Shown here in pieces: positions 29,620 to 41,951 of a DNA stretch of 64,000 nt. Position 1 is the first letter of the stretch. The number at the start of each line of letters is the position of its first letter. The position numbers were made by a program, and so were the translations under genes. The notes beneath the pieces were generated by a model that saw nothing but the letters and a program-made list of their open reading frames with translations, was not told the DNA's origin and did not search any database. The stretch is taken from NCBI GenBank assembly GCA_041320535.1, contig JBGLNH010000001.1:7670-71669 (forward strand), read 5' to 3'. Source of the DNA: Candidatus Aminicenantes bacterium. Lineage in GTDB: Bacteria > Acidobacteriota > Aminicenantia > Aminicenantales > Saccharicenantaceae.

Positions 29620-29648
29620 TTGACACCCCCCGGACCCGACACTATACT
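29620..29648 (+). promoter_or_regulatory. near-consensus sigma-70 promoter for the hydrogenase operon
   Basis: TTGACA (29620-29625), 17-nt spacer, TATACT (29643-29648). AAGGAAGG Shine-Dalgarno precedes ATG 29682. Confidence 0.55.
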
Positions 29649-29681
29649 AGGCCTTCAAAATAAGGAAGGCAGCCCGTCCCC

Positions 29682-31112
29682 ATGAACGTCGAAACAACCG
29701 TCCTCCTAACGATCCTCATCCCCATCCTCGGCTCGTTCGCGGCCCCTCTCGCCGGCCTCGCCGGCGGGCGCGTCAGGTCGGTCTGGGCCGTCCTGGTGAG
29801 CGGCGCGACGGCCGTCTTGCCCCTGACGCTCCTCTCCTTCGCTCTGCAGGGAGGGGAGCTCGTCCTTCGCAAGACGCTGGCCCTGGGCTTCGACCTCGTC
29901 CTCGTGGTCGATCCCCTGTCGATCTTCATGGCCGCCGTGTCCTCCTTCATCGGCTTCCTCATCGTCGTCTACTCGCTCGGCTACATCCGCCGCGAGGAGA
30001 ACCAGAACGAGTATTACCTCATGGTCCTGCTCTTCATCGGGGCGATGATGGGCCTCGTCTTCTCCGGCAACCTGGTCTTCCTGTACCTCTTCTGGGAGAT
30101 CATCGCCATCAGCTGCTGGCGGCTCATCGGCTTCCACCGCGAGCCGCTCCACGTGCGCAAGGCGGACAAGGCCTTCCTGGTGACCTTCTTCGGGGCCGTG
30201 GTCATGCTCCTCGGCTTCATCCAGATCTACGGCGTCACCAACACCTTCGACATCACGGCCATGCGGGGGACCCTCATCCCCGGCCCGGCCGTCCTGCTCA
30301 TCCTCTTCGGCATGTTCTCGAAATCGGCCACCGTCCCGCTCCACACCTGGCTGCCGGACGCCGGCGTCGCCCCGACCACGGTCACGGCCCTGCTCCACGC
30401 CGCCGTCCTGGTCAAGATCGGCGTCTACGCCTTCGCCCGCCTGTTCCTCTACACCTTCCGGCTGCCCGACGGCTGGCAGGAGGCGCTGCCGATCGTCGTC
30501 ATGGTCTCGAGCCTGGTCGCGGCGGGGGCGGCCGCCGTGGAGAACGACTTCAAGAGGATCCTGGCCTATTCCACGGTCAGCCAGATCGGCTACATCTTCC
30601 TCGGCTTCAGCGTGATGAACGCCGCCGGCGTCTCCGGATCGCTCCTGTTCATCCTCATGCACGGGCTGGCCAAGGCCGGGCTCTTCCTCTGCGCGGGGAT
30701 CGTCATCCACGCCGTCCACACCAAGGACATCCGCGAGATGGGCGGCCTGATCAAGACGATGCCGGTGACGGCCGTGTCCTTCCTCGTCTGCGCCTTCTCG
30801 GTCATCGGCATCCCGCCCTTCGGCGGCTTCTTCTCGAAGTTCCTGGTCATCCTCGGCACGGTCCAGGCCGGCAAGACGTGGGTCGCCGCCCTGGCCCTGT
30901 TCACCGCCGTCCTGACGATGTACTACCTGTTCAAGGTCTTCTCGATGGTCTTCCTGGGCGAGGCCAGGCATCCGGCCCCCGAGAAGACCCAATCCATGGT
31001 CTGCGTCGTCGCCGTCCTGGCCTTCCTCAGCCTGGCGGCCGGCCTCCTCGTCGCCTTCCCGGCGAAGCTGACGAACATCGCGACGACGCAGATGAGTTGG
31101 TGGCTCCGATGA
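29682..31112 (+). CDS. Mrp/Mbh antiporter-like subunit (NuoL/M/N-MrpD family)
   Basis: 476 aa, polytopic. HTWLPDAGVAPTTVTALLHAAVLVKIGVY proton-antiporter signature. Confidence 0.85.
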   Translation: MNVETTVLLTILIPILGSFAAPLAGLAGGRVRSVWAVLVSGATAVLPLTLLSFALQGGELVLRKTLALGFDLVLVVDPLSIFMAAVSSFIGFLIVVYSLGYIRREENQNEYYLMVLLFIGAMMGLVFSGNLVFLYLFWEIIAISCWRLIGFHREPLHVRKADKAFLVTFFGAVVMLLGFIQIYGVTNTFDITAMRGTLIPGPAVLLILFGMFSKSATVPLHTWLPDAGVAPTTVTALLHAAVLVKIGVYAFARLFLYTFRLPDGWQEALPIVVMVSSLVAAGAAAVENDFKRILAYSTVSQIGYIFLGFSVMNAAGVSGSLLFILMHGLAKAGLFLCAGIVIHAVHTKDIREMGGLIKTMPVTAVSFLVCAFSVIGIPPFGGFFSKFLVILGTVQAGKTWVAALALFTAVLTMYYLFKVFSMVFLGEARHPAPEKTQSMVCVVAVLAFLSLAAGLLVAFPAKLTNIATTQMSWWLR

Positions 31113-32977
31113 CGCCCAAAATGCTTCTCCTCCCGATCCTCCTGCCGGCGGTCCTCGCCGCGGTCCTCCTCGTCCTGCCGCGGACGCTGCGCCTCCTGCG
31201 CGACGTCCTGGCTGTCGCCGGGGCGGCGGTCCTCGTCTATTACGGCTTCGTCTTCTTCGCCGCGAAGGACCTCCGCTTCGCCGTCCCCTGGCTGGGCATG
31301 GGCATCGATTTCGACCTCCGGCTCTACCACTTCTCGAGCTTCATCCTGCTCGCCCTGGCCGGGTTCCTGCTCCTGATCGCGCTCTACGCGACGGTCAAGA
31401 TGAAGGACGCGCCCCGCTCGCGCGAGTTCATGGCCTACGTCTTCCTGACCGCGGCCTTCGCCAACGGGGCCGTCCTGGCCAACAACCTCGTCCCCCTCGT
31501 CTTCTTCTGGGAGGGCCTGCTCGTCACCCTCTACGGGCTGATCACGATCGGCGGGCGTCCGGCCTCGGGCCGGACGGCGGTCAAGGCCCTGCTCATCAGC
31601 GGCTTCTGCGATTTCTGCCTGATCCTGGGCATCGGCCTCCTCTGGACCATCGCGGGGACGGCGACGATGTCCGAGATCTCGGTCGCGCCGACCGGCCCGG
31701 CGGCCGCGGCCTTCGTCCTGATGATGATCGGGGCCGCCGGCAAGGCCGGGGCCATGCCCTTCCACACCTGGATCCCCGACGCTGCGGTCGACGCGCCCGT
31801 CACCTTCATGGCCTTCCTGCCGGCCGCTTTCGAGAAGCTCCTGGGGATCTACCTCCTGGCCCGCGTCGCCCTCGACTTCTTCACGATCGCCCCGGGCGGC
31901 GCCATGTCGATCCTGCTCATGATCGTCGGCGCCGTGACCATCGTCCTGGCCGTCCTCATGGCCCTCGTCCAGAAGGACCTCAAGCGGCTCCTGTCCTACC
32001 ACGCCGTCAGCCAGGTCGGCTACATGGTGCTCGGCATCGGCACGGCCGTGCCCTTCGGCATCGCCGGCGGCATCTTCCACATGATCAACCACGCCATGTA
32101 CAAGAGCGGCCTGTTCCTGAGCGCCGGCTCGGTCGAGCACCGGGCCGGCACGACCGAGCTCAAGAAGCTCGGCGGCCTGCGGCGCGAGATGCCCCTGACG
32201 GCCCTCGGCTTCACCGTCTGCGCGCTGGCCATCTCGGGCGTCTGGCCCCTCAACGGCTTCGTCTCCAAGGAGATGGTCTTCCACGGGGCCCTCGAAACGG
32301 GCTACACCGTCTTCGCCGTCGCGGCCTGGATCGGGGCCATCTTCACCTTCGCCTCGTTCCTCAAGGCCGGGCACTCCGTGTTCTTCGGGGAGAGGACCCG
32401 CGAGGTGCCCGCGCTCCGGGAAAGCCCGGCGGCCATCACCCTCCCCATCCTCGTCCTGGCCGGCCTGTGCGTCCTCTTCGGCGTCTACAACAAGCTGCCC
32501 CTGACCCTGTTCATCCAACCGATCCTCGGGGGCCACGTCGAGGCGGGCGCCCACCTCGACTTCACGAGCCACGCCCTGGACCTCTTCAATCCCGTCGCCC
32601 TGATCTCGATCGCCTGCCTCGTCGCGGCCTTCCTCATCCACCGCCACGGCTTCCTCAAGGGCGGGCGCCGGGCCCATCTGGCCTCCGAGCCCATCCACAA
32701 CCTGCCGGGCGTCCGCCGGCTCTACGACCTGGCCGAGCGACGGGTCTTCGACCCCTACGAGCAGGGCGTCAAGGTCCTCCAGGGGCTCTCGGTCGTCCTC
32801 TTCAAGGCCGTCGACCGGCCCATCGATCTCGTCTACGAGAAGATCGTCACCGTCACCGGCGCGAAGCTCACCGGGATCCTGAAAAAGGCCCACAACGGGC
32901 ACTACGCGAACTACCTCGCCTGGTGCCTGGCCGGCCTGATCATCATCGCGGGCGTGGTCAGCCTGCTCGCGAAGTGA
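31109..32977 (+). CDS. Mrp/Mbh antiporter-like subunit, long form (NuoL/MrpA-like)
   Basis: Start trimmed to MTPKMLLLPILL (ATG 31109, ATGA overlap with the upstream stop). 622 aa. PFHTWIPDAAVDAP motif and a C-terminal extension. Confidence 0.85.
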   Translation: MTPKMLLLPILLPAVLAAVLLVLPRTLRLLRDVLAVAGAAVLVYYGFVFFAAKDLRFAVPWLGMGIDFDLRLYHFSSFILLALAGFLLLIALYATVKMKDAPRSREFMAYVFLTAAFANGAVLANNLVPLVFFWEGLLVTLYGLITIGGRPASGRTAVKALLISGFCDFCLILGIGLLWTIAGTATMSEISVAPTGPAAAAFVLMMIGAAGKAGAMPFHTWIPDAAVDAPVTFMAFLPAAFEKLLGIYLLARVALDFFTIAPGGAMSILLMIVGAVTIVLAVLMALVQKDLKRLLSYHAVSQVGYMVLGIGTAVPFGIAGGIFHMINHAMYKSGLFLSAGSVEHRAGTTELKKLGGLRREMPLTALGFTVCALAISGVWPLNGFVSKEMVFHGALETGYTVFAVAAWIGAIFTFASFLKAGHSVFFGERTREVPALRESPAAITLPILVLAGLCVLFGVYNKLPLTLFIQPILGGHVEAGAHLDFTSHALDLFNPVALISIACLVAAFLIHRHGFLKGGRRAHLASEPIHNLPGVRRLYDLAERRVFDPYEQGVKVLQGLSVVLFKAVDRPIDLVYEKIVTVTGAKLTGILKKAHNGHYANYLAWCLAGLIIIAGVVSLLAK

Positions 32978-32990
32978 GAGAGGAGGAGCG

Positions 32991-34472
32991 TTGATCATAC
33001 TCTTCGTGGCCCTGCCGCTCGTCGTGGCGGCTGTCCTTCCTCTCGTCGGCAGGCTCTCCCGGCGCGTCCTTCCCGACCTGCTGGCCAACGCGACCCTGCT
33101 CTTCCTCCTGGTCTACGCCGCGGTCGCCGGCCGCGCCCTCATCGCCGGGGGGCCGGTCCTGCAGCACGTCGCCTGGCTCGGCGAGGCCGTCAACATCCGG
33201 ATGTCCCTCGACGGCTTCAGCCTGTTCATGCTCCTCTCCGTCTCCCTCGTCGGCCTCGCGGCCAGCCTCTTCGCCATCGATTACATGGAGCGCTACGGGG
33301 ACAAGGCGACCTACCACGCCCTCTACCTCATCATGATCGCCGGCATGAACGGCCTCGTCCTCGCGACCGACCTCTTCAGCGTCTACCTCTTCCTCGAGGT
33401 CGCCGCCGTCGCCTCCTACGCCCTGGTGGCCTACGGGCTCGGGCACGACGAGCTCGAGGCGGCCTTCAAGTACCTGATGCTCTCGGTCGCCGCCTCGGCG
33501 GCCGTCCTGTCCGCGGTCGCGGTCATCTTCGGCCTGACCGGCAGCCTCGACTTCGCCGCCGTCGCCGCCGCCCTCGGCGGCCTCGACGCCGGCCCGGCCG
33601 TGGCCATCGCCTCCGCCCTGTTCCTCATGGGCTTCGGCCTCAAGGCGGCCCTCATCCCGTTCCACGCCTGGCTGCCGGATGCGCACCCTTCGGCCCCGGC
33701 GCCCATCTCGGCCGTCCTGTCCGGCCTGCTCATCAAGGTCTCCGGCGTCTACGCCCTGACCCGGATCTTCCTCAACGTCTTCGGCCTGACGCCCGCCCTG
33801 TCGGCCGTCCTGATGGTCCTGGGCACGGTCTCGCTCGTCGTCGCCGCCTTCCTGGCCCTCGGCCAGAAGGACATGAAGCGGATGCTGGCCTACTCCTCGA
33901 TCAGCCAGGTCGGCTACATCGTCCTCGGCATCGGCCTGGGGACGCCGCTCGGCATCGCCGGCGGCCTCTTCCATCTCTTCAACCACGCCCTGGCCAAGGG
34001 GCTGCTGTTCTTGACCAGCGGCTCGGTCCAGCACGCGACCGGGACGCGCGACCTCGACGAGATGGGCGGGCTGGCCAAGCGCATGCCGGTCACGTCGGCC
34101 GCGAACCTCATCGGGGCCCTGTCGATCGCCGGCGTGCCGCCGCTCAACGGCTTCTGGTCGAAACTCATCATCATCATCGCCCTCGTCCAGGCCGGGGAGC
34201 CGGCGTTCGCCGTCATCGCCGTCCTGGCCTCGGTCCTGACCCTCTGGTACTACCTCCTCATGCAGCGGAAGGCCTTCTTCGGCCGGCTCGACCCGAAGTG
34301 GGCGGCCGTCCGGGAGGCCCCCTTCTGGATGACGGCCGCGACCGTCCTTCTGGCCCTCCTCTGCGTGGGGATCGGCATCCTTTTTGCGTCGACCGTCTCG
34401 ACCTGGATCCAGCCCGCCGCGGACGTCCTCGCGGACGGGGTCCGGGCCGCGGCCGGATCGTGGGGATTTTAG
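32991..34472 (+). CDS. Mrp/Mbh antiporter-like subunit (NuoM/MrpD-like)
   Basis: 493 aa with a TTG start. PFHAWLPDAHPSAPAPISAVLSGLLIKVSGVY. Confidence 0.85.
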   Translation: MIILFVALPLVVAAVLPLVGRLSRRVLPDLLANATLLFLLVYAAVAGRALIAGGPVLQHVAWLGEAVNIRMSLDGFSLFMLLSVSLVGLAASLFAIDYMERYGDKATYHALYLIMIAGMNGLVLATDLFSVYLFLEVAAVASYALVAYGLGHDELEAAFKYLMLSVAASAAVLSAVAVIFGLTGSLDFAAVAAALGGLDAGPAVAIASALFLMGFGLKAALIPFHAWLPDAHPSAPAPISAVLSGLLIKVSGVYALTRIFLNVFGLTPALSAVLMVLGTVSLVVAAFLALGQKDMKRMLAYSSISQVGYIVLGIGLGTPLGIAGGLFHLFNHALAKGLLFLTSGSVQHATGTRDLDEMGGLAKRMPVTSAANLIGALSIAGVPPLNGFWSKLIIIIALVQAGEPAFAVIAVLASVLTLWYYLLMQRKAFFGRLDPKWAAVREAPFWMTAATVLLALLCVGIGILFASTVSTWIQPAADVLADGVRAAAGSWGF

Positions 34473-34475
34473 ACG

Positions 34476-34958
34476 ATGATCGTTCAAACTGCCCTGCTCA
34501 TCGGTTTGGTGCTCTTCTCGGTCCTGGCCCTCCTCGTCAAGGACCTGCTCCGCTCGGCCATCTCCCTGGCCGCGGCCAGCCTGCTTCTGGGGATCGTCTT
34601 CTTCCGGATGGGCGCGCCGTACGCGGCCGTCTTCGAGATCTCCGTCGTCGCCGGGCTGATCACGGTCCTGTTCGTTCTGACCATCGCCCTGACCAAGGCC
34701 GGAGACGAGGTCCGCGAGTCCAGGATCGCCAACGTGGTCTTCCCCCTCGTCTTCGTCGCCTTCGTCGTCATCGACGCCCTGGTCATGAAGAGCCTCCTCG
34801 GCAAGGTCCCGGCCCTGGCCGCCGGGGCCGAGACCGGCTCCTTCGGCGAGGTCCTCTGGAGGGGGCGGACCTTCGACCTCGTCGGCCAGATCGCGGTCAT
34901 CCTGGCCGGCGTGTTCGCCGTCCTGGCCCTATTCCGCAAGAGGGACAAACATGACTAA
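34476..34958 (+). CDS. MbhD/E / MrpB / NuoJ-like membrane subunit
   Basis: 160 aa, 4-5 TM. ...LLRSAISLAAASLLLGIVFFRMGAPYAAVFEISVVAGLITVLFVLTIAL resembles the NuoJ/MbhD pattern. Confidence 0.6.
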   Translation: MIVQTALLIGLVLFSVLALLVKDLLRSAISLAAASLLLGIVFFRMGAPYAAVFEISVVAGLITVLFVLTIALTKAGDEVRESRIANVVFPLVFVAFVVIDALVMKSLLGKVPALAAGAETGSFGEVLWRGRTFDLVGQIAVILAGVFAVLALFRKRDKHD

Positions 34959-35259
34959 CACCTGGTACCTCTACCTGTTCTTCGCGGTCGCCCTGATCGC
35001 CGCCGGCCTGCTCGGCCTGCTGGCCCGCCGCAACCTCATCAAGCTCCTGATCGCCGTCGAGATCGTCGGCAAGGGCGTCAGCCTGCTCCTGCTCTCGACC
35101 GGCCTCGACAGGGGCCACATCCTGACCGCGCAGGCCCTGGTCATCACCTTCATCGTCGTCGAGGTCAGCCTGATCGCCACGGCGATGGCCCTGGTCATCA
35201 ACATCTACCGCCACACGAAGGGCTTGGACGTCCGCAAGCTGGCCAAGCTGAAAGGGTAA
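34951..35259 (+). CDS. NuoK/MrpC/MbhG-like membrane subunit
   Basis: 102 aa, 3 TM. LLGLLARRNLIKLLIAVEIVGKGVSLLLL with the conserved membrane Glu. Confidence 0.75.
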   Translation: MTNTWYLYLFFAVALIAAGLLGLLARRNLIKLLIAVEIVGKGVSLLLLSTGLDRGHILTAQALVITFIVVEVSLIATAMALVINIYRHTKGLDVRKLAKLKG

Positions 35260-35262
35260 GCC

Positions 35263-35595
35263 ATGACAGGAATCGGCATCCTCCTCTCCCCGCCCGTCGC
35301 CTTCCTGGTGTTCCTGGCCGCGGCCTTCGTTCTCTACGCCCTGGGCCGGGGCATGGCCCCCAAGCTGTCCAAGGTCGGCGGCAAGCTCACGACCTACGCC
35401 TGCGGCGAGAACATCCCCGGGGTCAAGGTCCAGTTCGGCTACCGCCTCTTCTTCTTCGTCGCCCTGTTCTTCACCATGATGCACGTCGCCGTCCTGGTCA
35501 TCGCCACCGTCCCGGCCGGCAAGATCGTCTTCTTCGCCCTGTTCTACCTCGTCATGATCTTCCTGTCGGTCATGGCCCTGGTCACGAGGAGATAA
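35263..35595 (+). CDS. MbhI/NuoA-like small membrane subunit (tentative)
   Basis: 110 aa, 3 TM, with a loop motif TYACGE reminiscent of the NuoA YECG loop. Confidence 0.45.
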   Translation: MTGIGILLSPPVAFLVFLAAAFVLYALGRGMAPKLSKVGGKLTTYACGENIPGVKVQFGYRLFFFVALFFTMMHVAVLVIATVPAGKIVFFALFYLVMIFLSVMALVTRR

Positions 35596-35596
35596 C

Positions 35597-36016
35597 ATGC
35601 TCAACAAGCTCGCGCGCTGGTCCAGGATCAAGTCGCCCTGGATCCTCCACCTCAACTCCGGCGCCTGCAACGCCTGCGACATCGAGATCGTGGCCGCGCT
35701 GACGCCGCGCTTCGACGTCGAGCGCTTCGGCATCCTGCTCAAAGCGACGCCCAGGCACGCCGACGTCATCATCGCCAGCGGCCCGGTGACCCGCCAGATC
35801 AGGGAGAGGATCATCCGCATCTACGAGCAGACGCCCGATCCCAAATTCGTCATCGCCGTCGGCGCCTGCGCCATGTCCGGCTGCGTCTACCGCGGCTCCT
35901 ACAACATCATGGGGGGCCTCGACCAGGTCATCCCCGTGAACATGTACGTCCCCGGCTGCCCGGCCCGGCCCGACGCCATCGTCGACGGTGTCGTTAAGCT
36001 CCTGGGCAAACTCTAG
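35597..36016 (+). CDS. group 4 [NiFe]-hydrogenase small subunit (NuoB/MbhJ-like)
   Basis: 139 aa. Cluster Cys residues in GACNACDIE, GACAMSG and PGCPARP. Confidence 0.9.
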   Translation: MLNKLARWSRIKSPWILHLNSGACNACDIEIVAALTPRFDVERFGILLKATPRHADVIIASGPVTRQIRERIIRIYEQTPDPKFVIAVGACAMSGCVYRGSYNIMGGLDQVIPVNMYVPGCPARPDAIVDGVVKLLGKL

Positions 36017-36031
36017 GTTCAAGGACAAGCC

Positions 36032-36502
36032 ATGACCGACGCCGAACTCATCGAGAAACTCAAGGCCGACCTGGGTGACCGGGTCGAGATCGCCAACCCG
36101 GCCCCTCGCCGGCTCTTCCTGAAGGTCGCCCCCCGGGTCCTCGTCGACGTCACGACCCGGCTCCGTGACGCCTACGGCCTGGTCTTCCTCTCGACCATCT
36201 CCGGCCTGGACAACGGCGCGACCTTCGAGATCATCTATCATTTCTCGACGCCCGGACAGGACTTCAACATCCGGACCGAGGTCCCCAAGGACGCTCCCCG
36301 CGTCCCCAGCATAACGCCGGTCATCCCGGGGGCCATCCTGTACGAGCGCGAGATCCAGGAGATGTTCGGGATCGTCGTGGACGGCATCCCCGACGGGCGC
36401 CGCCTCATGCTGTCGGACGACTGGCCCGAAGGCCAGTTCCCGCTGCGGAAGGACTGGAGGCACGCCCGGCCCCAGGAAGTCATCCCCGGAGGAGAATCAT
36501 GA
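36032..36502 (+). CDS. NuoC/MbhK-like subunit
   Basis: 156 aa. ...PGAILYEREIQEMFGIVVDG... NuoC signature. Confidence 0.85.
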   Translation: MTDAELIEKLKADLGDRVEIANPAPRRLFLKVAPRVLVDVTTRLRDAYGLVFLSTISGLDNGATFEIIYHFSTPGQDFNIRTEVPKDAPRVPSITPVIPGAILYEREIQEMFGIVVDGIPDGRRLMLSDDWPEGQFPLRKDWRHARPQEVIPGGES

Positions 36503-37701
36503 GCTTCGAGATCCCCATCGGCCCACAGCACCCGGCCCTCAAGGAGCCGATCAGCCTGCGCATGACGGTCGAGGGCGAGGTCATCACCGGCGCCGACATC
36601 CGCCTCGGCTACAACCACCGGGGCGTCGAGAAGGTGGCCGAGGAGAAGAACTGGACCCAGAACATCTACCTCGCCGAGCGCATCTGCGGCATCTGCTCGC
36701 ACTCCCACGCGACCTGCTTCGTCCAGGGCGTCGAGAAGCTCATGGAGCTCCAGCCGCCCAAGCGCGGCCTGTACATCCGCTACCTCGTCTCCGAGCTCGA
36801 GCGCGTCCACAGCCACCTCCTCTGGCTCGGCGTGGCCGGCCACGAGGCCGGCTTCGACTCGTTCTTCATGTACACGTGGCGCGACCGCGAGATCGTCATG
36901 GACCTCCTCGAGATGATCACCGGCAACCGCGTCCACTACGCCATCAACGCCATCGGCGGCGTCCGCCGGGACCTCGACGAAGGCCAGAAGGCCAAGGTCC
37001 TGGAAGGCGTCGCGACGCTGAGGAAGCGGAGCGTATATTATTTCCGCATCGGGGCGACCGAGCCGAGCTTCGTGGCCCGCATCGCCGGCGTCGGCATGCT
37101 CAGCCTGGAGCAGGCCGTCGCCCTCTGCGCCTGCGGCCCCACGGCCCGGGCCTCCGGCTGGGCACGCGACGTCCGCAAGGAGGACCCCTACGCCGTCTAC
37201 GACGAGCTCGACTTCGCCGTCTGCACGGCCGACACCTGCGACGTCCTGGGCCGGGTCGTCGTCCGCGTCAAGGAGCTCCTCGAGTCCTACAACATGATCG
37301 AGCAGATGATCAGGAACCTGCCCGGCGGCGACATCGCCTGCAAGGCCCCCCGCAAGGCCAAGCCCGGCGAGGTCGTCAGCCGCTACGAGGCCCCGCGCGG
37401 CGAGAACATCCACTACATCAAGGCCAACGGGACCGACAAGCCCGAGCGCCTCAAGGTCCGGGCGCCGACCCTCGGCAACTACCCGGCCACGGTGGAGATG
37501 CTCAGGAACGGCTTCATCGCCGACATCCCGCTCATCTTCGCCGCCATCGACCCCTGCATCTGCTGCGCCGAAAGGACGGTGACGCTGATCGGCGCCCGAA
37601 GCGGCGAGGAATCCGTCGTCCGGATGAGCGACCTGCGCCGGCGGGCGCTCGCCCGGCCCGAGAACGCCCTTCTGAAAAGGAACGCGGTATGGCCGTTCTG
37701 A
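36499..37701 (+). CDS. group 4 [NiFe]-hydrogenase large subunit (NuoD/MbhL/EchE-like) with both Ni-Fe Cys pairs
   Basis: N-terminal ERICGICSHSH and C-terminal DPCICCAER motifs are both present, followed by a 41-aa tail. Confidence 0.9.
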   Translation: MSFEIPIGPQHPALKEPISLRMTVEGEVITGADIRLGYNHRGVEKVAEEKNWTQNIYLAERICGICSHSHATCFVQGVEKLMELQPPKRGLYIRYLVSELERVHSHLLWLGVAGHEAGFDSFFMYTWRDREIVMDLLEMITGNRVHYAINAIGGVRRDLDEGQKAKVLEGVATLRKRSVYYFRIGATEPSFVARIAGVGMLSLEQAVALCACGPTARASGWARDVRKEDPYAVYDELDFAVCTADTCDVLGRVVVRVKELLESYNMIEQMIRNLPGGDIACKAPRKAKPGEVVSRYEAPRGENIHYIKANGTDKPERLKVRAPTLGNYPATVEMLRNGFIADIPLIFAAIDPCICCAERTVTLIGARSGEESVVRMSDLRRRALARPENALLKRNAVWPF

Positions 37702-38660
37702 GAACATTCCTCTATCTCCTCGTCTATCCCGGGCTCCTGTTCCTGTTCGTCTATTCGACCTTCTGCGAATGGTTCGACCGCAAGGTCTACGCCAGGCTGC
37801 AGAACAGGATGGGCCCCACGCACACGGGCCGGTTCGGCCTCCTCCAGCCGATCGCCGACTTCATCAAGCTCATGGCCAAGGAGGACGTCGTCCCCGAGGC
37901 CGCGGACAAGCGGCTGTTCTCGGTCCTGCCCGCCTTCGCCCTGGCCGTCGTCGCGACGGCCGGCCTGCTGCTGCCCGTCTGGAACTTCGACCTGGCCCGG
38001 CCCGGCTGGGCGTCCTTCCCCGGCGACATCGTCGTCATCCTCTACCTGCTCAGCCTGCCGACCCTCATCCTCTTCCTGGCCGCCTGGTCCTCGACCAACC
38101 TCTTCGCGACGATCGGCGGGGCCCGCGTCCTGACGATGCTCTTCGGCTACGAGGTGCCGCTGTTCCTGGCCGTCCTGAGCCCAGCCATCCTGGCCGATTC
38201 CTGGCGGCTGGCCGAGATCGCGGCCTTCTACCAGGCCAAGCCCCTGCTCCTCCTGGTCAACGCCCTGGGCTTCCTCGTCGCCGTCGTCTCCGTCCAGGCC
38301 AAGCTCGAGCGGACGCCCTTCGACATCCCGCACGCCGAGACCGAGATCGTCGGCGGCACGTTCACCGAGTACTCGGGCAAGAAGCTGGCCCTGTTCCGGC
38401 TGGCCTTCGACGTCGAGATGGTCGTCGCCAGCGGGCTCCTCGCGGCCGTCTTCCTGGGGGGCTTCCCCGGCGGCGCGGTCGTCGGCTTCGTCCACCTCGT
38501 CGTCAAGACCCTCTTCGTCATCTTCCTGCTGTCGCTCATCCGGGCCACGACCTCGCGGATCCGCATCGACCAGGTCGTCTCCTTCTCCTGGAAGGTCCTG
38601 GCTCCGCTGGCCGTCCTCCAGCTCCTGGCCGTCATCCTCCTGAAGGGATTCCTGAGATGA
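37689..38660 (+). CDS. NuoH/MbhM-like membrane subunit
   Basis: Start trimmed to MAVLRTFLYLLVYPG (ATG 37689). CEWFDRKVYARLQNRMGPTHTG NuoH signature. Confidence 0.9.
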   Translation: MAVLRTFLYLLVYPGLLFLFVYSTFCEWFDRKVYARLQNRMGPTHTGRFGLLQPIADFIKLMAKEDVVPEAADKRLFSVLPAFALAVVATAGLLLPVWNFDLARPGWASFPGDIVVILYLLSLPTLILFLAAWSSTNLFATIGGARVLTMLFGYEVPLFLAVLSPAILADSWRLAEIAAFYQAKPLLLLVNALGFLVAVVSVQAKLERTPFDIPHAETEIVGGTFTEYSGKKLALFRLAFDVEMVVASGLLAAVFLGGFPGGAVVGFVHLVVKTLFVIFLLSLIRATTSRIRIDQVVSFSWKVLAPLAVLQLLAVILLKGFLR

Positions 38661-39082
38661 AAATCGCCGTCTTCCTGCCCGAGCTCCTCCGCCACCTCTT
38701 CAAGAAGCCGGCCACCGTCGACTACCCCTTCCAAAAGCTCGATGTGCCGCCCGATTTCCGCGGCACGCCCTACCTCGATCCCGCGATGTGCATCGTCTGC
38801 AAGGCCTGCGAGAGGGACTGCCCGGCCGAGGCCATCGAGATCACCGACGTCGACCCGGCCGAGAAGCGCTTCAAGATGGTCATCCACAACGACCGCTGCA
38901 TCCACTGCGCCCAGTGCGTCGATTCCTGCCCGACGAGCCCCAAGGCCATGAAGATGGACAGCCTGTACGAGATCGCGACGGACAGCCGCCTCAAGCTCAA
39001 GGCCGAATGGGTGTACGTGCGGGCCGTGCTCAAGCCCAAGGCCGCCGCTCCCGCGGCGCTCCCGGCCGAGCCCAAGGCCTGA
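38657..39082 (+). CDS. NuoI/MbhN-like 2x[4Fe-4S] ferredoxin subunit
   Basis: ATG 38657 overlaps the upstream stop (ATGA). CIVCKACERDCP and CIHCAQCVDSCP. Confidence 0.9.
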   Translation: MKIAVFLPELLRHLFKKPATVDYPFQKLDVPPDFRGTPYLDPAMCIVCKACERDCPAEAIEITDVDPAEKRFKMVIHNDRCIHCAQCVDSCPTSPKAMKMDSLYEIATDSRLKLKAEWVYVRAVLKPKAAAPAALPAEPKA

Positions 39083-39091
39083 ATTCCTTTT

Positions 39092-40189
39092 CTAGATCTT
39101 CATCGGCATGAGGACGTAGGTGTTCGCGATGGCCTCTTCCGTCTCCGGCCGGAGCAGGACGGCGCTGTTCTCGTCCTTGACCTCGAAGACGACCTTCTCC
39201 GAATCGACGGCCGTCAGGAAGTCCAGGAGATACTGGGCGTTGAAGCCGATCTCGAGGTCCTGGCCCTTGTAGTCGACGTCCAGCCTGTCCCGGGCCTCGC
39301 CGATCTCCGGATTCGACGAGAAGAGGCGGAGCTTGTTCTTCTCGACCGTGAACTTGATCCCCTTGGACCTCTCGGCGGAGAGGAGCGACACGCGCCGGAT
39401 GGCCCCGGCCAGCTCCTCCCGGCCGATGACGAGGCGCCCGGGGTTGTCCTTGGGGATGACCGCCTGGTAGTTCGGGAACTTGCTCTCGATGATCCGGGAG
39501 ATGAGCGTCCTCGGCCCGACCCGGAAGAAGAGATTGTTGTCGTCGAGGTCGAATTCGACGGCCTCGTCCTCGAATTTCCGGATCTCGGCCAGCGTCTTCT
39601 TGGCCACGATGACGCTCAGCTCTTTTTCCAGCTTCAGGCCGTCCTCGGCCTTGCGCGTGTACGACAGCCTGTGCCCGTCCGTGCTCACCAGCTCGATCTG
39701 GCGGTTCTTGAGCGACAGCAGGGCCCCGTTGAGATAGTACCGCTGCTCCTGCGTGATCGCGTAGAAGACGCGGTCGATCATCTCCTTGATCTCCCGGAGC
39801 GGCAGCTTGATGCCCTTCTCGAACTTCGCGTCGGGCACCTGGGGGTAGTCCTCCTTGGCCAGGCAGAGGACCTTGAACTCGCTCTCTCCGGCCTTGATCT
39901 CGATCGTCTCGTCCTTCAGCTCGACTCGGACCGTCTGTCCCTCGGGGAGCGATTTTACGATCTCGAAGATCTTCTTCCCGTTGACCGTGATGGCGCCCGG
40001 CCGTTCGATGTCCGCGGCGAGGTGCGTCCTCAGGCCGACCTCGAGGTCGGTGCCCGTCATCTCGATCTCCCCCGCCTGGACGTTCATCAGGATGTTGGCC
40101 AGGATGGGCATCGTGTTCCTCTTCTCGACGATGCCCTGGAGGATCTGCAATTCTCCCAGGAAAGCTTCTTTGGCGATCGCGAATTTCAT
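39092..40189 (-). CDS. dnaN: DNA polymerase III beta sliding clamp
   Basis: 365 aa. MKFAIAKEAFLGELQILQGIVEKRNTMPILANILM... Directly downstream of dnaA. Confidence 0.95.
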   Translation of the reverse strand: MKFAIAKEAFLGELQILQGIVEKRNTMPILANILMNVQAGEIEMTGTDLEVGLRTHLAADIERPGAITVNGKKIFEIVKSLPEGQTVRVELKDETIEIKAGESEFKVLCLAKEDYPQVPDAKFEKGIKLPLREIKEMIDRVFYAITQEQRYYLNGALLSLKNRQIELVSTDGHRLSYTRKAEDGLKLEKELSVIVAKKTLAEIRKFEDEAVEFDLDDNNLFFRVGPRTLISRIIESKFPNYQAVIPKDNPGRLVIGREELAGAIRRVSLLSAERSKGIKFTVEKNKLRLFSSNPEIGEARDRLDVDYKGQDLEIGFNAQYLLDFLTAVDSEKVVFEVKDENSAVLLRPETEEAIANTYVLMPMKI

Positions 40190-40326
40190 ATCGGCACCTC
40201 TCGCTCGACTGTCCTCTTCTTTATTCTTTATTCTTAATATTTAATTCAGAAAACAACTCAAATCAAGAAAAGAAATAAGAAAGTCCTCTGGAAATGTGGG
40301 AATCCGCGCGAAACGATTGATCCTTC
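40190..40326. other. AT-rich dnaA-dnaN spacer, candidate oriC unwinding region
   Basis: 40216-40290 is cttctttattctttattcttaatatttaattcagaaaacaactcaaatcaagaaaagaaataagaaag, with a TCTTTAT tandem. A DnaA-box-like TGTGGGAAT sits near 40305. Confidence 0.45.
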
Positions 40327-41658
40327 TCATTGGATGAAGGCCAGGAGGCTGTTGATCTCTTTGTTGAATTCGGGATCGTCCGTCCGGAGCTTTTCGATCT
40401 TCCGGATGCTGTGGATGACGGTCGTGTGGTGTTTTCCACCGAATTTCTTGCCGATATCCGGAAGGGAGGACTTGGTCAGCTCCTTGGCCAGGTACATGGC
40501 TATCTGGCGGGGGAAGGCGACCTTGGGGGAATTGTTCTTCGACTTGAGCTGCGAGGTCTTGAGCTTGAACTTGTGGCAGATGAGCTTCTGGATCTTTTCC
40601 ACAGTGACGATGGTCGTCGAGGAGTCGAGCAGGCCTTTCAGGGCCTCCTTGGTCAGGTCGAGATCGATCCTCTCGCCCTTGAGGGAGGCGAAGGCGATGA
40701 CGCGGCGGAGATACCCCTCGAGCTCGCGGATGTTCGTCTGGACCTTGTCGGCGACGTAGAGGGCGACGCTCTCGGGGAGGACGACGGCCTCCGATTCGGC
40801 CTTTTTCTTGAGGATGGCGATGCGCGTCTCGATGTCGGGGGGCTTCAGGTCGGCGATGAGGCCCCATTCGAAGCGCGACCGGAAGCGCTCCTCGAGGTGG
40901 GGGATCTCCTTCGGGGGGCAGTCGCTGGAGATGACGATCTGCTTCTGGCTGTCATAAAGGTGGTTGAAGGTGTGGAAAAATTCCTCTTTGGTCCGTTCGC
41001 GGCCGGACAGGTAGTGGATGTCGTCCATGAGCAGCAGATCGACGCTCCGGTATTTCTCCCGGAACTCCAGGATCTTGCCGTACTGGAGGTGGTTGACGAG
41101 GTCGTTCATGAACTTCTCGGTCGTGACGTAGAGGATCTTGTTCTTGGCGCTCTGCTGGACCGAGAAGTGCCCGATGGCGTTCATCAGGTGCGTTTTGCCG
41201 AGCCCCGCCCCGCCGTAGATGTAGAGGGGGTTGTAGGATTTGGCCGGGTTCTTGGCCACGGCCGAGGCGGCGGCGTGCGCGAACTGGTTGCAGCTGCCGA
41301 CGACGAAGTTCTCGAAGGTGTAGTTGGGATTGAGGTTCGGATTGACGGCCTGCCCCGGCTTCGTTTTCCGCTCCTCGGGGGACCGGCGCATGAAGGCCGT
41401 CGGGGTGTCGTCGTGGATGTAGCGGACGTCGAAGGTCTTGCCGAAGATATCGCGCGAGCACTCGTTGATGACGTTCGAATAGTGGAACGACAGCCAGTCG
41501 CGGAAGTAGGCGTTGGGGACCTTGACGTAGAGGCAGTCCTGTTCCTGCCCGATGAAGGTCGTCGGGTCGAACCAGGTCTCGAACGAGTTGGGATCGACCT
41601 TGGTTTCGACGGCCCGCAGGATATCGTTCCAAGGATTTTGTTTTTCTTGAGGTTCCAT
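40327..41658 (-). CDS. dnaA: chromosomal replication initiator DnaA
   Basis: Start trimmed to MEPQEKQNPWNDIL (complement 41656-41658). Walker A GGAGLGKTHL and the C-terminal DNA-binding HTTVIHSIRKI. Confidence 0.95.
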   Translation of the reverse strand: MEPQEKQNPWNDILRAVETKVDPNSFETWFDPTTFIGQEQDCLYVKVPNAYFRDWLSFHYSNVINECSRDIFGKTFDVRYIHDDTPTAFMRRSPEERKTKPGQAVNPNLNPNYTFENFVVGSCNQFAHAAASAVAKNPAKSYNPLYIYGGAGLGKTHLMNAIGHFSVQQSAKNKILYVTTEKFMNDLVNHLQYGKILEFREKYRSVDLLLMDDIHYLSGRERTKEEFFHTFNHLYDSQKQIVISSDCPPKEIPHLEERFRSRFEWGLIADLKPPDIETRIAILKKKAESEAVVLPESVALYVADKVQTNIRELEGYLRRVIAFASLKGERIDLDLTKEALKGLLDSSTTIVTVEKIQKLICHKFKLKTSQLKSKNNSPKVAFPRQIAMYLAKELTKSSLPDIGKKFGGKHHTTVIHSIRKIEKLRTDDPEFNKEINSLLAFIQ

Positions 41659-41671
41659 GGGAGCGCTTATT

Positions 41672-41703
41672 TTTTCCACAGATTTTTCCACATCTGTGGA
41701 AAA
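41672..41703. promoter_or_regulatory. cluster of three DnaA-box-like 9-mers upstream of dnaA
   Basis: TTTTCCACA at 41672-41680 and 41684-41692, and TGTGGAAAA at 41695-41703. Consensus is TTATCCACA. The last two form a palindrome. Confidence 0.65.
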
Positions 41704-41951
41704 TCTTCTCCCGGGTGTCTGCCGTCCGGGGGAAGCCCGGCAATCATAGCATTCCGAAAGGGCCTTTTCAAGTCTTTTTTTAGGGGAAAACGGGGCTCGG
41801 GACGCGCCGCGGCCGGGCCACGGCGGGAGACGCGGCAAGGCCGCTCCGGGAGGCCCGGAAAGGCCGGAAAAGGGCCCGAAAACGAGGCCGTGTCGGGGCC
41901 GCGGAGGGCCCGGGAAACCGTCTGTTTTGTCGCGCTTAGAAGGGCTTCCTG

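What the first reader, a model, noticed from the sequence alone, without database searches (positions are those of the whole stretch)
29620..39082. Eleven-gene Mrp/Mbh-type group 4 [NiFe]-hydrogenase with three antiporter-like subunits and intact Ni-Fe ligands
One operon encodes the following, in order:
- three NuoL/M/N-MrpA/D-like subunits (476, 622 and 493 aa)
- MbhD/E-NuoJ-like, NuoK-like and a small MbhI/NuoA-like subunit
- NuoB-, NuoC-, NuoD-, NuoH- and NuoI-like subunits

It follows a near-consensus promoter, and most gene junctions are ATGA/GTGA overlaps.
- The NuoD-like protein keeps both hydrogenase Cys pairs (ERICGICSHSH and DPCICCAER). A 41-aa tail follows the second, suggesting endopeptidase processing.
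- It should therefore be a real H2-evolving or H2-consuming enzyme, not complex I, Mbx or Ehr.
- Apart from the shuffled gene order, the membrane arm has nearly the full complex I complement. MrpE/F/G-like (MbhA-C) genes are missing.
- No hyp or hyc maturation genes or endopeptidase are in the window.
- The electron partner is not encoded in the operon. A NuoEFG-like trio lies 6.5 kb upstream.
Basis: partly seen in the sequence, partly recalled or inferred. Interest (0 to 1): 0.6.

Follow-up and report, generated by a model that had tools for sequence, protein, structure and literature searches.

The report
Complex-I-shaped membrane [NiFe] hydrogenase operon
This is a real, intact 11-gene operon for a membrane-bound nickel-iron hydrogenase built from the same eleven parts as the core of respiratory complex I; it is conserved across Aminicenantes and many other anaerobic bacteria and resembles the archaeal "Hfo" enzyme already described, so it is a good example and not a new kind.

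Summary
**Observation:** confirmed. Eleven tightly packed genes (29682-39082, + strand) follow a TTGACA-17-TATACT promoter.
- They encode three antiporter-like subunits, one of which is a full NuoL type with a lateral helix.
- They also encode NuoJ-, K-, A-, B-, C-, D-, H- and I-like subunits.
- The D-like subunit keeps all four Ni-Fe cysteines (C63, C66, C353, C356) and a 41-aa HycE-like tail.

**Interpretation:** partly supported.
- It is a group 4 [NiFe] hydrogenase, not complex I or Ehr, but it is not Mrp/Mbh-type.
- The catalytic subunit sits in a well-supported clade of complex-I-architecture operons found in many anaerobic phyla, next to the archaeal Hfo hydrogenase (HydDB 4g in the literature).
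- An AU test rejects grouping it with Pyrococcus Mbh.

- The "NuoEFG trio upstream" lies across a contig joint at about 23195, so the adjacency is an artefact.
- The missing hyp genes reflect an incomplete, concatenated genome bin. HypF is intact in 25 of the 31 genomes searched.
- Most relatives carry a HycI protease as a twelfth gene; this lineage has lost it.

**Likely function (inferred):** ferredoxin-linked, ion-pumping H2 evolution, which may be reversible.

**Novelty:** new member of a known, biochemically uncharacterised kind.

The parts
29620..29648 (+). sigma-70-type promoter TTGACA-17-TATACT
   Evidence: 11/12 match. Hexamers are conserved in 59/62 Aminicenantes loci with a variable spacer.
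29682..31112 (+). g1, antiporter-like subunit (476 aa; NuoN/M/HyfD-like)
   Evidence: Proton_antipo_M 237 bits plus Proton_antipo_N. The TM5 Glu (E139), TM7 Lys (K214), K245, K331 and TM12 Lys (K386) are kept.
31109..32977 (+). g2, NuoL-type antiporter-like subunit (622 aa) with lateral helix HL and a C-terminal TM anchor
   Evidence: - Matches the NuoL model over its full length (5-619 vs 4-611 of 615).
- The C-terminus aligns with E. coli NuoL HL/TM16.
- AF2 model has pLDDT 87.5, with helix 549-594 followed by TM 599-621.
- Foldseek gives TM 0.82/0.82 to the M. smegmatis complex I L chain (8E9G_L), against TMq 0.68 to MbhH.
- E135, K212, K332 and K387 are kept.
32991..34472 (+). g3, antiporter-like subunit (493 aa, TTG start; MrpD/NuoM-like)
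   Evidence: Proton_antipo_M 240 bits. E136, K218, K336 and K391 are kept.
34476..34958 (+). g4, unsplit NuoJ-like subunit (160 aa)
   Evidence: - Oxidored_q3 and MbhD are both above cut-off.
- PDB hits: MbhD 40 bits on residues 1-75, and E. coli NuoJ on residues 25-105.
- The global alignment with E. coli NuoJ spans both proteins.
34951..35259 (+). g5, NuoK-like subunit (102 aa)
   Evidence: Oxidored_q2 64.6 bits. E37 aligns with E. coli NuoK E36, and a second membrane Glu (E71) is present.
35263..35595 (+). g6, NuoA/ND3-like subunit (110 aa) with a YACGE loop motif
   Evidence: No Pfam hit. A profile of 30 orthologues (A2) hits only ND3/NuoA/NdhC chains in the PDB (22 hits, best E 4.8e-4). 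It is conserved in all related operons.
35597..36016 (+). g7, NuoB-like small subunit (139 aa), one [4Fe-4S] cluster, hydrogenase-type CxxC (C24, C27, C91, C121)
   Evidence: Oxidored_q6 105 bits. CNAC stands where E. coli NuoB has CC.
36032..36502 (+). g8, NuoC-like subunit (156 aa)
   Evidence: Complex1_30kDa 105 bits.
36499..37701 (+). g9, [NiFe] large subunit (400 aa). L1 motif at 36676-36708 (C63, C66); L2 motif at 37549-37575 (C353, C356); 41-aa C-terminal tail at 37576-37698.
   Evidence: - MbhL 275 bits and HycE 269 bits, against a best NuoD of 197 bits.
- Motifs are invariant in 120/120 homologues.
- Trees.
37689..38660 (+). g10, NuoH-like membrane anchor (323 aa)
   Evidence: NADHdh 285 bits. 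Nqo8 163 bits, against MbhM 92 and HycD 61.
38657..39082 (+). g11, NuoI-like 2x[4Fe-4S] subunit (141 aa); probable ferredoxin entry point
   Evidence: Fer4_7, Fer4 and related models. The two motifs are CIVCKACERDCP and CIHCAQCVDSCP.

Best explanation
The operon encodes an 11-subunit, energy-converting group 4 [NiFe] hydrogenase with the architecture of the complex I / Fpo core. It is a bacterial counterpart of the archaeal Hfo enzyme.

**Proposed mechanism:**
- Reduced ferredoxin (the genome has pyruvate:ferredoxin oxidoreductase) donates electrons to the two [4Fe-4S] clusters of the NuoI-like subunit.
- The electrons pass through the single [4Fe-4S] cluster of the NuoB-like subunit to the Ni-Fe site in the NuoD-like subunit. 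The site is ligated by C63, C66, C353 and C356, and protons are reduced to H2 there.
- The free energy is transmitted through the NuoH/A/J/K-like 'E-channel' subunits to three antiporter-like subunits. These are strapped together by the lateral helix of the NuoL-like subunit and move H+ (or Na+) across the membrane.
- The reaction may run in reverse, with membrane potential driving ferredoxin reduction by H2.

**Maturation.** The large subunit is made as a precursor whose 41-aa tail is removed by a HycI-type protease after Hyp-dependent cofactor insertion.

**Shown here:** gene content, ligand and pump-residue conservation, fold of g2, phylogenetic placement, and conservation across genomes.

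**Inferred:** the electron donor, the direction of the reaction, the ion and stoichiometry, and the processing.
For: - **Genes:** 11 intact genes with the expected families.
- **Ni-Fe ligands:** they align with the MbhL and HycE ligands, and the tail aligns with the HycE propeptide. They are invariant in 120/120 homologues.
- **Small subunit:** it has the hydrogenase-type CxxC.
- **Pump subunits:** all three antiporter-like subunits keep the TM5 Glu, TM7 Lys and TM12 Lys.
- **g2:** folds as a full NuoL with HL.
- **Synteny:** order and content are conserved in every Aminicenantes locus that is long enough. The same order N-L-M-J-K-A-B-C-D-H-I occurs in Planctomycetota, Elusimicrobiota, Bacillota, Spirochaetota, Myxococcota, Omnitrophota and Actinomycetota, all with intact L1 and L2 motifs.
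- **Protease:** a HycI-like gene directly follows the operon in 48/73 Aminicenantes loci and in most loci of other phyla.
- **Maturation genes:** HypF scores above its cut-off in 25 of the 31 genomes searched (30 relatives plus this assembly).
- **Ferredoxin source:** PFOR is present in this genome.
- **Phylogeny:** the large subunit sits in a 29-row clade (96/97) beside the Hfo clade.
- **Literature:** Hfo is described as an 11-subunit, ferredoxin-linked 4g hydrogenase in PMC7886697.
Against: - No member of this clade has been studied biochemically, so donor, direction and ion are inferred by analogy.
- Ferredoxin-to-H2 electron transfer releases little energy. Four pump sites, as in complex I, look like too many for forward H2 evolution, and this favours reverse or antiport operation.
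- In this assembly HypA, HypE and HypF are not found and HypD is truncated. The operon-linked HycI gene is absent. Function in this particular strain is therefore not demonstrated, although the assembly is an incomplete concatenated bin.
- The L2 motif has Cys at the [AGST] position (CICC), a small departure from the textbook motif.
Confidence: 0.78

Rival explanations
1. It is an Mrp/Mbh-type (HydDB 4d) hydrogenase like that of Pyrococcus furiosus. On this reading it couples H2 evolution to Na+/H+ exchange through an Mrp-derived sodium module.
For: - MbhL is the best-scoring solved structure for the large subunit (275 bits).
- JGI annotation calls orthologues 'membrane-bound hydrogenase subunit alpha'.
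- The J-K-A-B-C-D-H-I part of the gene order parallels mbhD/E-G-I-J-K-L-M-N.
- The g4 N-terminus scores best against MbhD.
Against: - No MbhA/B/C/F (MrpE/F/G/B) genes are present. The 11 genes leave no room for them.
- The large subunit is outside the Mbh clade, and the AU test rejects a joint clade (p 0.00085).
- There are three antiporter-like subunits, with a NuoL-type HL on g2 and not on an MbhI-like protein.
- g6 matches ND3/NuoA only.
- g10 is nearer to Nqo8 (163 bits) than to MbhM (92 bits).
- MbhL has no C-terminal tail, whereas this protein has 41 aa.
Confidence: 0.05
2. It is a non-hydrogenase complex-I-like respiratory complex (Ehr/Fpo-like/Mbx-like). It would pass electrons from ferredoxin to quinone or another acceptor, and the cysteines would be relics.
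For: - The subunit inventory is identical to 11-subunit Nuo/Fpo.
- NCBIfam's best large-subunit hits are NuoD and FpoD models, all below cut-off.
- NuoH, NuoL and NuoA are complex-I-like.
Against: - All four Ni-Fe Cys and the flanking motif residues are invariant across 120/120 close homologues and across every related locus in other phyla.
- The HycE-like tail is conserved at 41 aa.
- A HycI protease gene is part of the ancestral operon.
- The small subunit has the hydrogenase CxxC.
- The genome has a separate canonical NuoD without the cysteines.
Confidence: 0.05
3. It works with the NuoEF/NuoG-like proteins encoded upstream as a 14-subunit NADH-linked (or bifurcating) hydrogenase. This would be a complex I that reduces protons.
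For: A NuoE-F fusion and a NuoG-like gene lie at 19586 to about 23195 in the window.
Against: - The NuoG-like gene and a fabG gene on the opposite strand are both truncated at about 23195.
- In two same-genus genomes synteny with the window starts exactly there. plsX is followed by full-length fabG, fabF and an ETF-domain gene, with no NuoEFG within 12 kb.
- The adjacency is therefore a joint between concatenated contigs.
- Four unrelated genes on both strands lie in between.
- NADH to H2 coupled to outward pumping is thermodynamically implausible.
Confidence: 0.03
4. The operon is a genuine hydrogenase family member, but in this particular strain it is non-functional or on its way to decay. 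The reason would be that the maturation system (hypA/B/E/F, intact hypD, operon-linked hycI) has been lost.
For: - HypF and HypA are not found, HypE is below cut-off and HypD is truncated.
- The HycI gene is absent after g11 here and in 25 of 73 loci, including all 11 loci with at least 88% large-subunit identity to the window.
Against: - All 11 genes are intact, with conserved ligands and a conserved promoter.
- The 'genome' is an 81.6%-complete bin whose contigs are concatenated. The nuo, hyf-like, hyp and PFOR loci are all cut at joints.
- Congeners are 2.9-3.3 Mb against 2.43 Mb here, and nearly all of them have HypF.
- A HycI-like protease exists beside the second group 4 hydrogenase.
Confidence: 0.08

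Closest known systems
Hfo, the Fpo-like 11-subunit [NiFe] hydrogenase of Bathyarchaeia (Loh, Herve & Brune 2021, PMC7886697; HydDB subgroup 4g, their lineage 4g-6)
   Same: - Same 11-subunit inventory (NuoA, B, C, D, H, I, J, K plus three antiporter-like subunits).
- Intact L1 and L2 Ni-Fe motifs.
- No NuoEFG/FpoFO input module and no Mrp sodium module.
- Ferredoxin is the presumed partner.
- The large subunits fall in neighbouring clades (joint node 70/90).
   Different: - Gene order is N-L-M-J-K-A-B-C-D-H-I here, against A-B-C-D-H-I-J-K-N-M-M in the archaeal loci.
- NuoC and NuoD are separate here. The Bathyarchaeota cluster representative P0128 is 560 aa and matches this large subunit from its residue 175 on, so it looks like a C-D fusion.
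- This protein has a 41-aa tail and, ancestrally, a HycI gene. Most loci of the A-B-C-D-H-I-J-N-M-M type end at ...CTDR with no tail.
- The host is bacterial.
- The sister relation is only moderately supported.
Pyrococcus furiosus membrane-bound hydrogenase Mbh (PDB 6CFW; HydDB 4d)
   Same: - Ferredoxin-type input through a NuoI-like subunit.
- [NiFe] large subunit (best PDB hit, 275 bits).
- NuoB/C/H homologues, a NuoK-like subunit and an antiporter-like subunit.
   Different: - Mbh has 14 subunits, with one antiporter-like subunit and an MrpEFG/B-type sodium module.
- In Mbh NuoJ is split (MbhD+E) and the lateral helix is on MbhI.
- MbhL has no C-terminal tail.
- The large subunit is phylogenetically separate (AU p 0.00085).
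E. coli hydrogenase 4 / formate hydrogenlyase (HyfA-J, HycB-G; HydDB 4a; PDB 7Z0S)
   Same: - Three antiporter-like subunits in Hyf.
- The large subunit has a cleaved C-terminal tail that aligns with this one.
- A HycI-type protease.
   Different: - No formate dehydrogenase or HycB/HyfA ferredoxin genes here.
- Hyf/Hyc lack NuoA and NuoJ homologues.
- HycE and HyfG are C-D fusions.
- It is a separate clade, and the genome's second hydrogenase (LS2) is the Hyf-like one.
Respiratory complex I / Fpo 11-subunit core (NuoABCDHIJKLMN)
   Same: - One-to-one subunit inventory.
- NuoL-type lateral helix (TM 0.82 to complex I L chains).
- ND3-like loop subunit.
- The NuoH-like subunit is closest to Nqo8.
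- Pump residues are conserved.
   Different: - It has Ni-Fe ligands where complex I has a quinone site.
- The NuoB-like subunit has CxxC where NuoB has tandem CC.
- Gene order is different.
- The genome has its own separate canonical nuo genes.

Membership tests
Group 4 (energy-converting, membrane-bound) [NiFe] hydrogenases | L1 motif C[GS][ILV]C[AGNS]xxH in the large subunit | tested here: met
   CGICSHSH at residues 63-70 aligns with CGICSFSH of MbhL and CGICGFAH of HycE. It is invariant in 120/120 homologues.
Group 4 (energy-converting, membrane-bound) [NiFe] hydrogenases | L2 motif [DE][PL]Cx[AGST]Cx[DE][RL] near the C-terminus | tested here: met
   DPCICCAER (351-359) aligns with DPCLSCTDR and DPCYSCTDR. 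Both ligand Cys are present. The [AGST] position is Cys, as in some 4g-type sequences (HunG CYCC).
Group 4 (energy-converting, membrane-bound) [NiFe] hydrogenases | Small subunit with a single proximal [4Fe-4S] cluster bound by CxxC...C...C; NuoH- and NuoI-like partners | tested here: met
   g7 has C24, C27, C91 and C121. g10 is NuoH-like and g11 is a 2x[4Fe-4S] protein.
Group 4 (energy-converting, membrane-bound) [NiFe] hydrogenases | Ni-Fe(CN)2CO cofactor present and H2 turnover | not testable with these tools
   This needs biochemistry. Indirect evidence: HypF is present above its cut-off in 25 of the 31 genomes searched. HypC and truncated HypD are in this bin. HycI is linked to the operon in relatives.
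Hfo-like / complex-I-architecture hydrogenases (HydDB 4g in the literature) | Exactly the 11 complex I core subunits, with no NuoEFG/FpoFO and no Mrp sodium module | tested here: met
   The genes are contiguous and leave no room for more.
Hfo-like / complex-I-architecture hydrogenases (HydDB 4g in the literature) | Large subunit clusters with the Hfo lineage | tested here: inconclusive
   The neighbouring-clade relation has UFBoot 70 / SH-aLRT 90 and SH-aLRT 93 in the quick tree. The nearer 29-row bacterial/Methanoregula clade is solid (96/97).
Hfo-like / complex-I-architecture hydrogenases (HydDB 4g in the literature) | Fpo/Nuo gene order A-B-C-D-H-I-J-K-L-M-N | tested here: not met
   The order here is N-L-M-J-K-A-B-C-D-H-I. 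It is a permuted arrangement shared with many bacterial phyla.
Hfo-like / complex-I-architecture hydrogenases (HydDB 4g in the literature) | HydDB classifier assigns subgroup 4g | not tested
   HydDB is not available here. 4g is a loosely clustered, polyphyletic catch-all according to PMC13582414.
Mrp-Mbh type (HydDB 4d) | Mrp-derived sodium module (MbhA, B, C, F = MrpE, F, G, B) in the operon | tested here: not met
   There are no such genes. The 11 genes occupy 29682-39082 with gaps of at most 15 nt.
Mrp-Mbh type (HydDB 4d) | Large subunit within the MbhL clade | tested here: not met
   Trees. The AU test rejects a joint clade with P. furiosus MbhL and its relatives (p 0.00085). The group was named after the tree had been seen.
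Respiratory complex I / Ehr (non-hydrogenase) | Loss of the Ni-Fe cysteines in the NuoD homologue | tested here: not met
   All four Cys are kept. The genome's true NuoD lacks them.

The most novel reading that the evidence does not exclude
The bacterial N-L-M-J-K-A-B-C-D-H-I(+HycI) clade, to which this operon belongs, may be the extant Ni-Fe-containing lineage with the most complex-I-like membrane arm.
- **Features that fit:**
  - a NuoL with a lateral helix spanning three pump subunits;
  - an unsplit NuoJ;
  - an ND3-type loop subunit;
  - a NuoH closer to Nqo8 than to MbhM.
- **Why it could matter:** it is uncharacterised in bacteria. It could show how a low-energy ferredoxin/H2 couple is geared to three or four pump sites, for instance by obligate reverse operation or by part of the arm working as an antiporter.
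- **Added twist:** this sub-lineage has dropped its dedicated HycI while keeping the 41-aa tail. That implies cross-maturation by the Hyf-type protease, or an uncleaved active enzyme.
Probability: 0.3. Interest if true: 0.65.

Novelty: new member of a known kind. Interest (0 to 1): 0.4.

Why it matters
**Evolution and mechanism.** Enzymes of this type sit between the simple energy-converting hydrogenases and respiratory complex I.
- A bacterial representative is abundant in sediments, digesters and aquifers. It lies next to the replication origin and has a strongly conserved promoter.
- It would be a practical target for structural and bioenergetic work on how complex I's proton-pumping arm was first coupled to redox chemistry.

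**Ecology.** It is probably one of the H2-handling enzymes of Aminicenantes, so its direction (H2 source or sink) bears on carbon and hydrogen budgets in anoxic habitats.

**For the scan.**
- The finding is real but ordinary.
- This 'genome' is a concatenated bin, so long-range neighbours such as NuoEFG, and missing genes such as hyp, cannot be taken at face value.

Tried and rejected
- **Hydrogenase-specific NCBIfam models.** None exist for the large subunit. The best hits were NuoD and FpoD, all below cut-off, so this was uninformative for subgroup.
- **hyp genes in the genome.** HypF and HypA were absent, HypE was below cut-off and HypD was truncated.
  - I first considered real loss of maturation.
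  - I rejected this as a conclusion after finding that nuo, the hyf-like locus, hypD and PFOR are all cut at joints and that relatives have HypF.
- **NuoEFG as electron-input neighbour.** Rejected: there is a contig joint at about 23195.
- **Mbh membership.** Rejected by trees and the AU test.
- **Kosmotoga/Atribacteria 'Hun' (4g) and CooH clades.** Labelled through cluster names. Both lie outside the clade that holds this large subunit.
- **Formate hydrogenlyase.** This is how an Aminicenantes paper annotated such genes. There is no Fdh or HycB gene in the operon, and the Hyf-like enzyme is the other locus.
- **Which group 4 clade is sister to NuoD.** The backbone is unresolved (support 11/9), so no claim is made.
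- **hypCDE near HypF in two congeners.** Not adjacent; not pursued further.

Full report
**1. What is there**

Eleven genes lie on the + strand between 29682 and 39082.
- Three junctions are ATGA overlaps, two are longer overlaps (8 and 13 nt) and five are gaps of 1-15 nt.
- g3 starts with TTG.
- A TTGACA-17-TATACT promoter sits at 29620-29648 (11/12 match; 0.5 such sites expected in shuffles).
- In 59 of 62 Aminicenantes loci the same hexamers stand upstream of the first gene while the spacer sequence varies. This is good comparative evidence that the promoter is real.
- The operon runs convergently into dnaN (39092-40189, - strand), which is followed by dnaA. The operon therefore abuts the replication origin region.

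**2. Subunit identities**

Assignments from Pfam and NCBIfam:
- g1-g3 are Proton_antipo_M proteins.
- g4 is NuoJ-like; the NuoJ and MbhD models are both above cut-off.
- g5 is NuoK-like, g7 NuoB-like, g8 NuoC-like, g9 NuoD-like / [NiFe] large subunit, and g10 NuoH-like.
- g11 is a 2x[4Fe-4S] NuoI-like protein.

g6 (110 aa):
- It has no Pfam hit.
- A profile built from 30 orthologues hits only ND3/NuoA/NdhC chains in the PDB. There are 22 hits, the best E is 4.8e-4, and the alignment is full length and includes the YxCGxD loop.
- It is therefore NuoA/ND3-like and not MbhI-like.

g2 (622 aa):
- It matches the NuoL model from end to end.
- Its C-terminus aligns with the HL helix and last TM of E. 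coli NuoL.
- An AlphaFold2 model (pLDDT 87.5) has a 46-residue helix (549-594) followed by a terminal TM helix.
- The model superposes on complex I L chains with TM 0.78-0.83 over the whole length. It superposes on MbhH only over the 14-TM core, with TMq 0.68.

Other membrane subunits:
- All three antiporter-like subunits keep the TM5 Glu, TM7 Lys, the central Lys/His and the TM12 Lys of the proton path.
- g5 keeps the NuoK membrane glutamates. g4 aligns along the whole of E. coli NuoJ, so it is unsplit.
- g10 is much closer to Nqo8 (163 bits) than to MbhM (92 bits) or HycD (61 bits).

**3. The catalytic subunit**

- Against solved structures, g9 scores best with P. furiosus MbhL (275 bits) and E. 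coli HycE (269 bits). It scores lower with every NuoD (at most 197 bits).
- ERICGICSHSH and DPCICCAER align exactly with the Ni-Fe ligand motifs of both enzymes.
- The 41 residues after Arg359 align with the C-terminal peptide that HycI removes from HycE.
- Both motifs are present in 120/120 nearest database homologues, and 118 of the 120 have the 41-aa tail.
- The small subunit has the hydrogenase-type CxxC where NuoB has CC.
- The genome also holds a canonical NuoD without the cysteines, and a second, HycE/HyfG-like large subunit.

**4. Which kind of group 4 enzyme**

The organism is an Aminicenantes bacterium (Acidobacteriota), judging by homologue names.

Distribution:
- 211 species-level genomes encode a close relative.
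- All 80 loci fetched that are long enough have the same 11 genes in the same order, mostly flanked by polA-GNAT upstream and dnaN-dnaA-relA downstream.

Search against 1.84 billion cluster representatives:
- The nearest other clusters are at about 45-53% identity.
- Cluster names for these are Methanoregula, Anaerolineales/Pelolinea, Bathyarchaeota and Asgard archaea.

A second scan with a profile of these sequences fetched 80 loci:
- The order N-L-M-J-K-A-B-C-D-H-I recurs in Planctomycetota, Elusimicrobiota, Bacillota, Spirochaetota, Myxococcota, Omnitrophota and Actinomycetota.
- Chloroflexota and a Methanobacteriota MAG have J-K-N-M-A-B-C-D-H-I, with two antiporter-like subunits.
- Bathyarchaeia and Asgard archaea have the Fpo/Nuo order A-B-C-D-H-I-J-K-N-M-M.
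- All of them have intact L1 and L2 motifs.

The archaeal arrangement is the 'Hfo' hydrogenase described by Loh et al. 2021. That paper presents it as the first [NiFe] hydrogenase with the 11 subunits and gene order of Fpo/Nuo. HydDB classed it as 4g, and it is presumed to be ferredoxin-coupled (PMC7886697).

IQ-TREE analysis with 86 rows:

| Grouping that includes this large subunit | Rows | UFBoot / SH-aLRT |
|---|---|---|
| Aminicenantes plus a Chrysiogenales sequence | 5 | 100/99 |
| Plus the multi-phylum N-L-M-J-K clade | 21 | 98/88 |
| Plus the Chloroflexota/Methanoregula type | 29 | 96/97 |
| Plus the archaeal Hfo clade | 45 | 70/90 |

- The clades of P. furiosus MbhL, E. coli HycE/HyfG, Kosmotoga 'Hun' and a CooH-named cluster lie outside on an unresolved backbone (labels).
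- Forcing Aminicenantes and the Mbh clade together costs 118.7 lnL units (p-AU 0.00085). The group was named after the tree had been seen.
- 'Mrp/Mbh-type' is therefore the wrong label. The enzyme is Hfo-like, meaning complex-I-architecture. It would most likely be called 4g by HydDB, but this was not tested. 4g is a polyphyletic catch-all (PMC13582414).

**5. Maturation genes and the state of the assembly**

In this genome:
- The window has no hyp or hycI gene.
- HypC and HypD are found elsewhere, but HypD breaks off at about residue 275 and runs into ispF.
- HypF and HypA give no hit, and HypE stays below cut-off.

This is not evidence of loss. The 2.43-Mb single 'contig' is a pseudo-molecule of joined bin contigs:
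- nuoBCDE and nuoLMN are 520 kb apart.
- The Hyf-like locus is split over 183 kb.
- PFOR is cut at model position 573.
- Completeness is 81.6%, and congeners measure 2.9-3.3 Mb.

In the 31 genomes searched (30 relatives plus this assembly):
- HypF scores above its cut-off in 25.
- The large-subunit orthologue (at least 73% identity) is present in most of the genus and in three other families of the order.

**6. The upstream 'NuoEFG' genes**

- A NuoE-F fusion (19586-21784) and a NuoG-like gene (from 21781) do exist.
- The NuoG-like gene and a fabG gene on the opposite strand both lose sense at about 23195.
- In two same-genus genomes, DNA similarity to the window begins exactly at 23195. There plsX is followed by full-length fabG, fabF and an ETF-domain gene, and there is no NuoEFG within 12 kb.
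- The adjacency is an assembly joint and says nothing about the electron partner.
- Earlier notes of this scan reached the same view of this record independently.

**7. A difference from relatives**

- In 48 of 73 Aminicenantes loci with enough downstream sequence, and in most loci of other phyla, a HycI-type endopeptidase gene follows the NuoI-like gene as a twelfth gene.
- In the window only 9 nt separate the g11 stop (39082) from the dnaN stop (39092).
- The protease gene is also missing in all 11 loci with at least 88% large-subunit identity to the window, yet the tail stays at 41 aa.
- The only HycI-like gene found in this bin sits beside the Hyf-like hydrogenase at genome position 1743412-1743762.
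- Either that protease serves both enzymes, or the missing gene lies in the unassembled part of the genome.

**8. Mechanism**

The model is inferred from the anatomy and from established knowledge of Mbh, FHL, complex I and Fpo-like complexes:
- Electrons flow from reduced ferredoxin to the 2x[4Fe-4S] clusters of g11, then to the [4Fe-4S] cluster of g7, then to the Ni-Fe site of g9, where 2H+ become H2.
- The reaction is coupled through g10, g6, g4 and g5 to the three antiporter-like subunits, which are tied together by the g2 lateral helix.
- PFOR is present as a ferredoxin source.
- Published Aminicenantes reconstructions describe fermenters with group 4 H2-evolving hydrogenases (PMC10766756; PMC4897734).

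Open problem:
- The ferredoxin/H2 couple offers little energy for three or four pump sites.
- Reverse operation (H2 plus membrane potential driving ferredoxin reduction, as Loh et al. proposed for Hfo), or partial antiport, remains a live alternative.

**9. Verdict**

It is wrong about 'Mrp/Mbh-type' and about the NuoEFG neighbourhood.
- The system is a new member of a known but biochemically uncharacterised kind. It is widespread and has already been noted at annotation level, so interest is moderate.

Noticed in passing
window 23100-23448 (joint at about 23195): A NuoG-like gene (+ strand) and a fabG-like SDR gene (- strand) are both truncated at the same point. In two same-genus genomes, similarity to the window starts exactly at 23195, and plsX is followed there by full-length fabG, fabF and an ETF-domain gene. 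This is a joint between concatenated bin contigs.
   Followed up: yes
whole genome G000 (e.g. 950491-954279 vs 1474814-1477521; 1743412-1748239 vs 1930470-1931445; 1626786-1628024; 2256750-2258456): The 2.43-Mb 'single contig' is a pseudo-molecule. The nuo operon, a Hyf-like hydrogenase locus, hypD and PFOR are all cut or split at joints. Gene absence and long-range gene order in this record are therefore unreliable.
   Followed up: partly
window 39082-39092, compared with loci L018, L021, L027, L030-L033 and others: The HycI-type protease gene that follows the operon in 48/73 Aminicenantes loci is absent here and in 25 of those loci, including all 11 with at least 88% large-subunit identity to the window. 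Only 9 nt separate the NuoI-like gene from dnaN. The 41-aa tail of the large subunit is nevertheless kept.
   Followed up: yes
genome G000:C1:1743412-1748239 and 1930470-1931445: A second group 4 hydrogenase of Hyc/Hyf type is present.
- Its large subunit is a C-D fusion with 43% identity to HycE, ERICGICGSVH and DPCFSCTDR motifs, and a tail.
- It has its own HycI-like protease.
- Its small and ferredoxin subunits sit on another piece of the bin.
   Followed up: partly
window 19586-21784: A single 732-aa protein fuses a NuoE-like 2Fe-2S thioredoxin-like domain, a NuoF FMN/NADH module and two extra 4Fe-4S motifs, and is followed by a NuoG-like gene. It resembles the diaphorase part of bifurcating hydrogenases or formate dehydrogenases. 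Its partner is lost at the contig end.
   Followed up: no
window 40000-42000: G+C drops to 58% (from about 67%) across the dnaA region, and the cumulative GC skew turns there. This is consistent with the replication origin lying next to the operon. The polA-GNAT-operon-dnaN-dnaA-relA arrangement is conserved across the order.
   Followed up: partly
locus L158 (Actinomycetota MAG) and L154 (Spirochaetota MAG): There are variants of the operon. L158 carries a tandem second B-C-D-H-I module after the first. L154 has a fourth antiporter-like gene (N-L-M-M-J-K-...).
   Followed up: no
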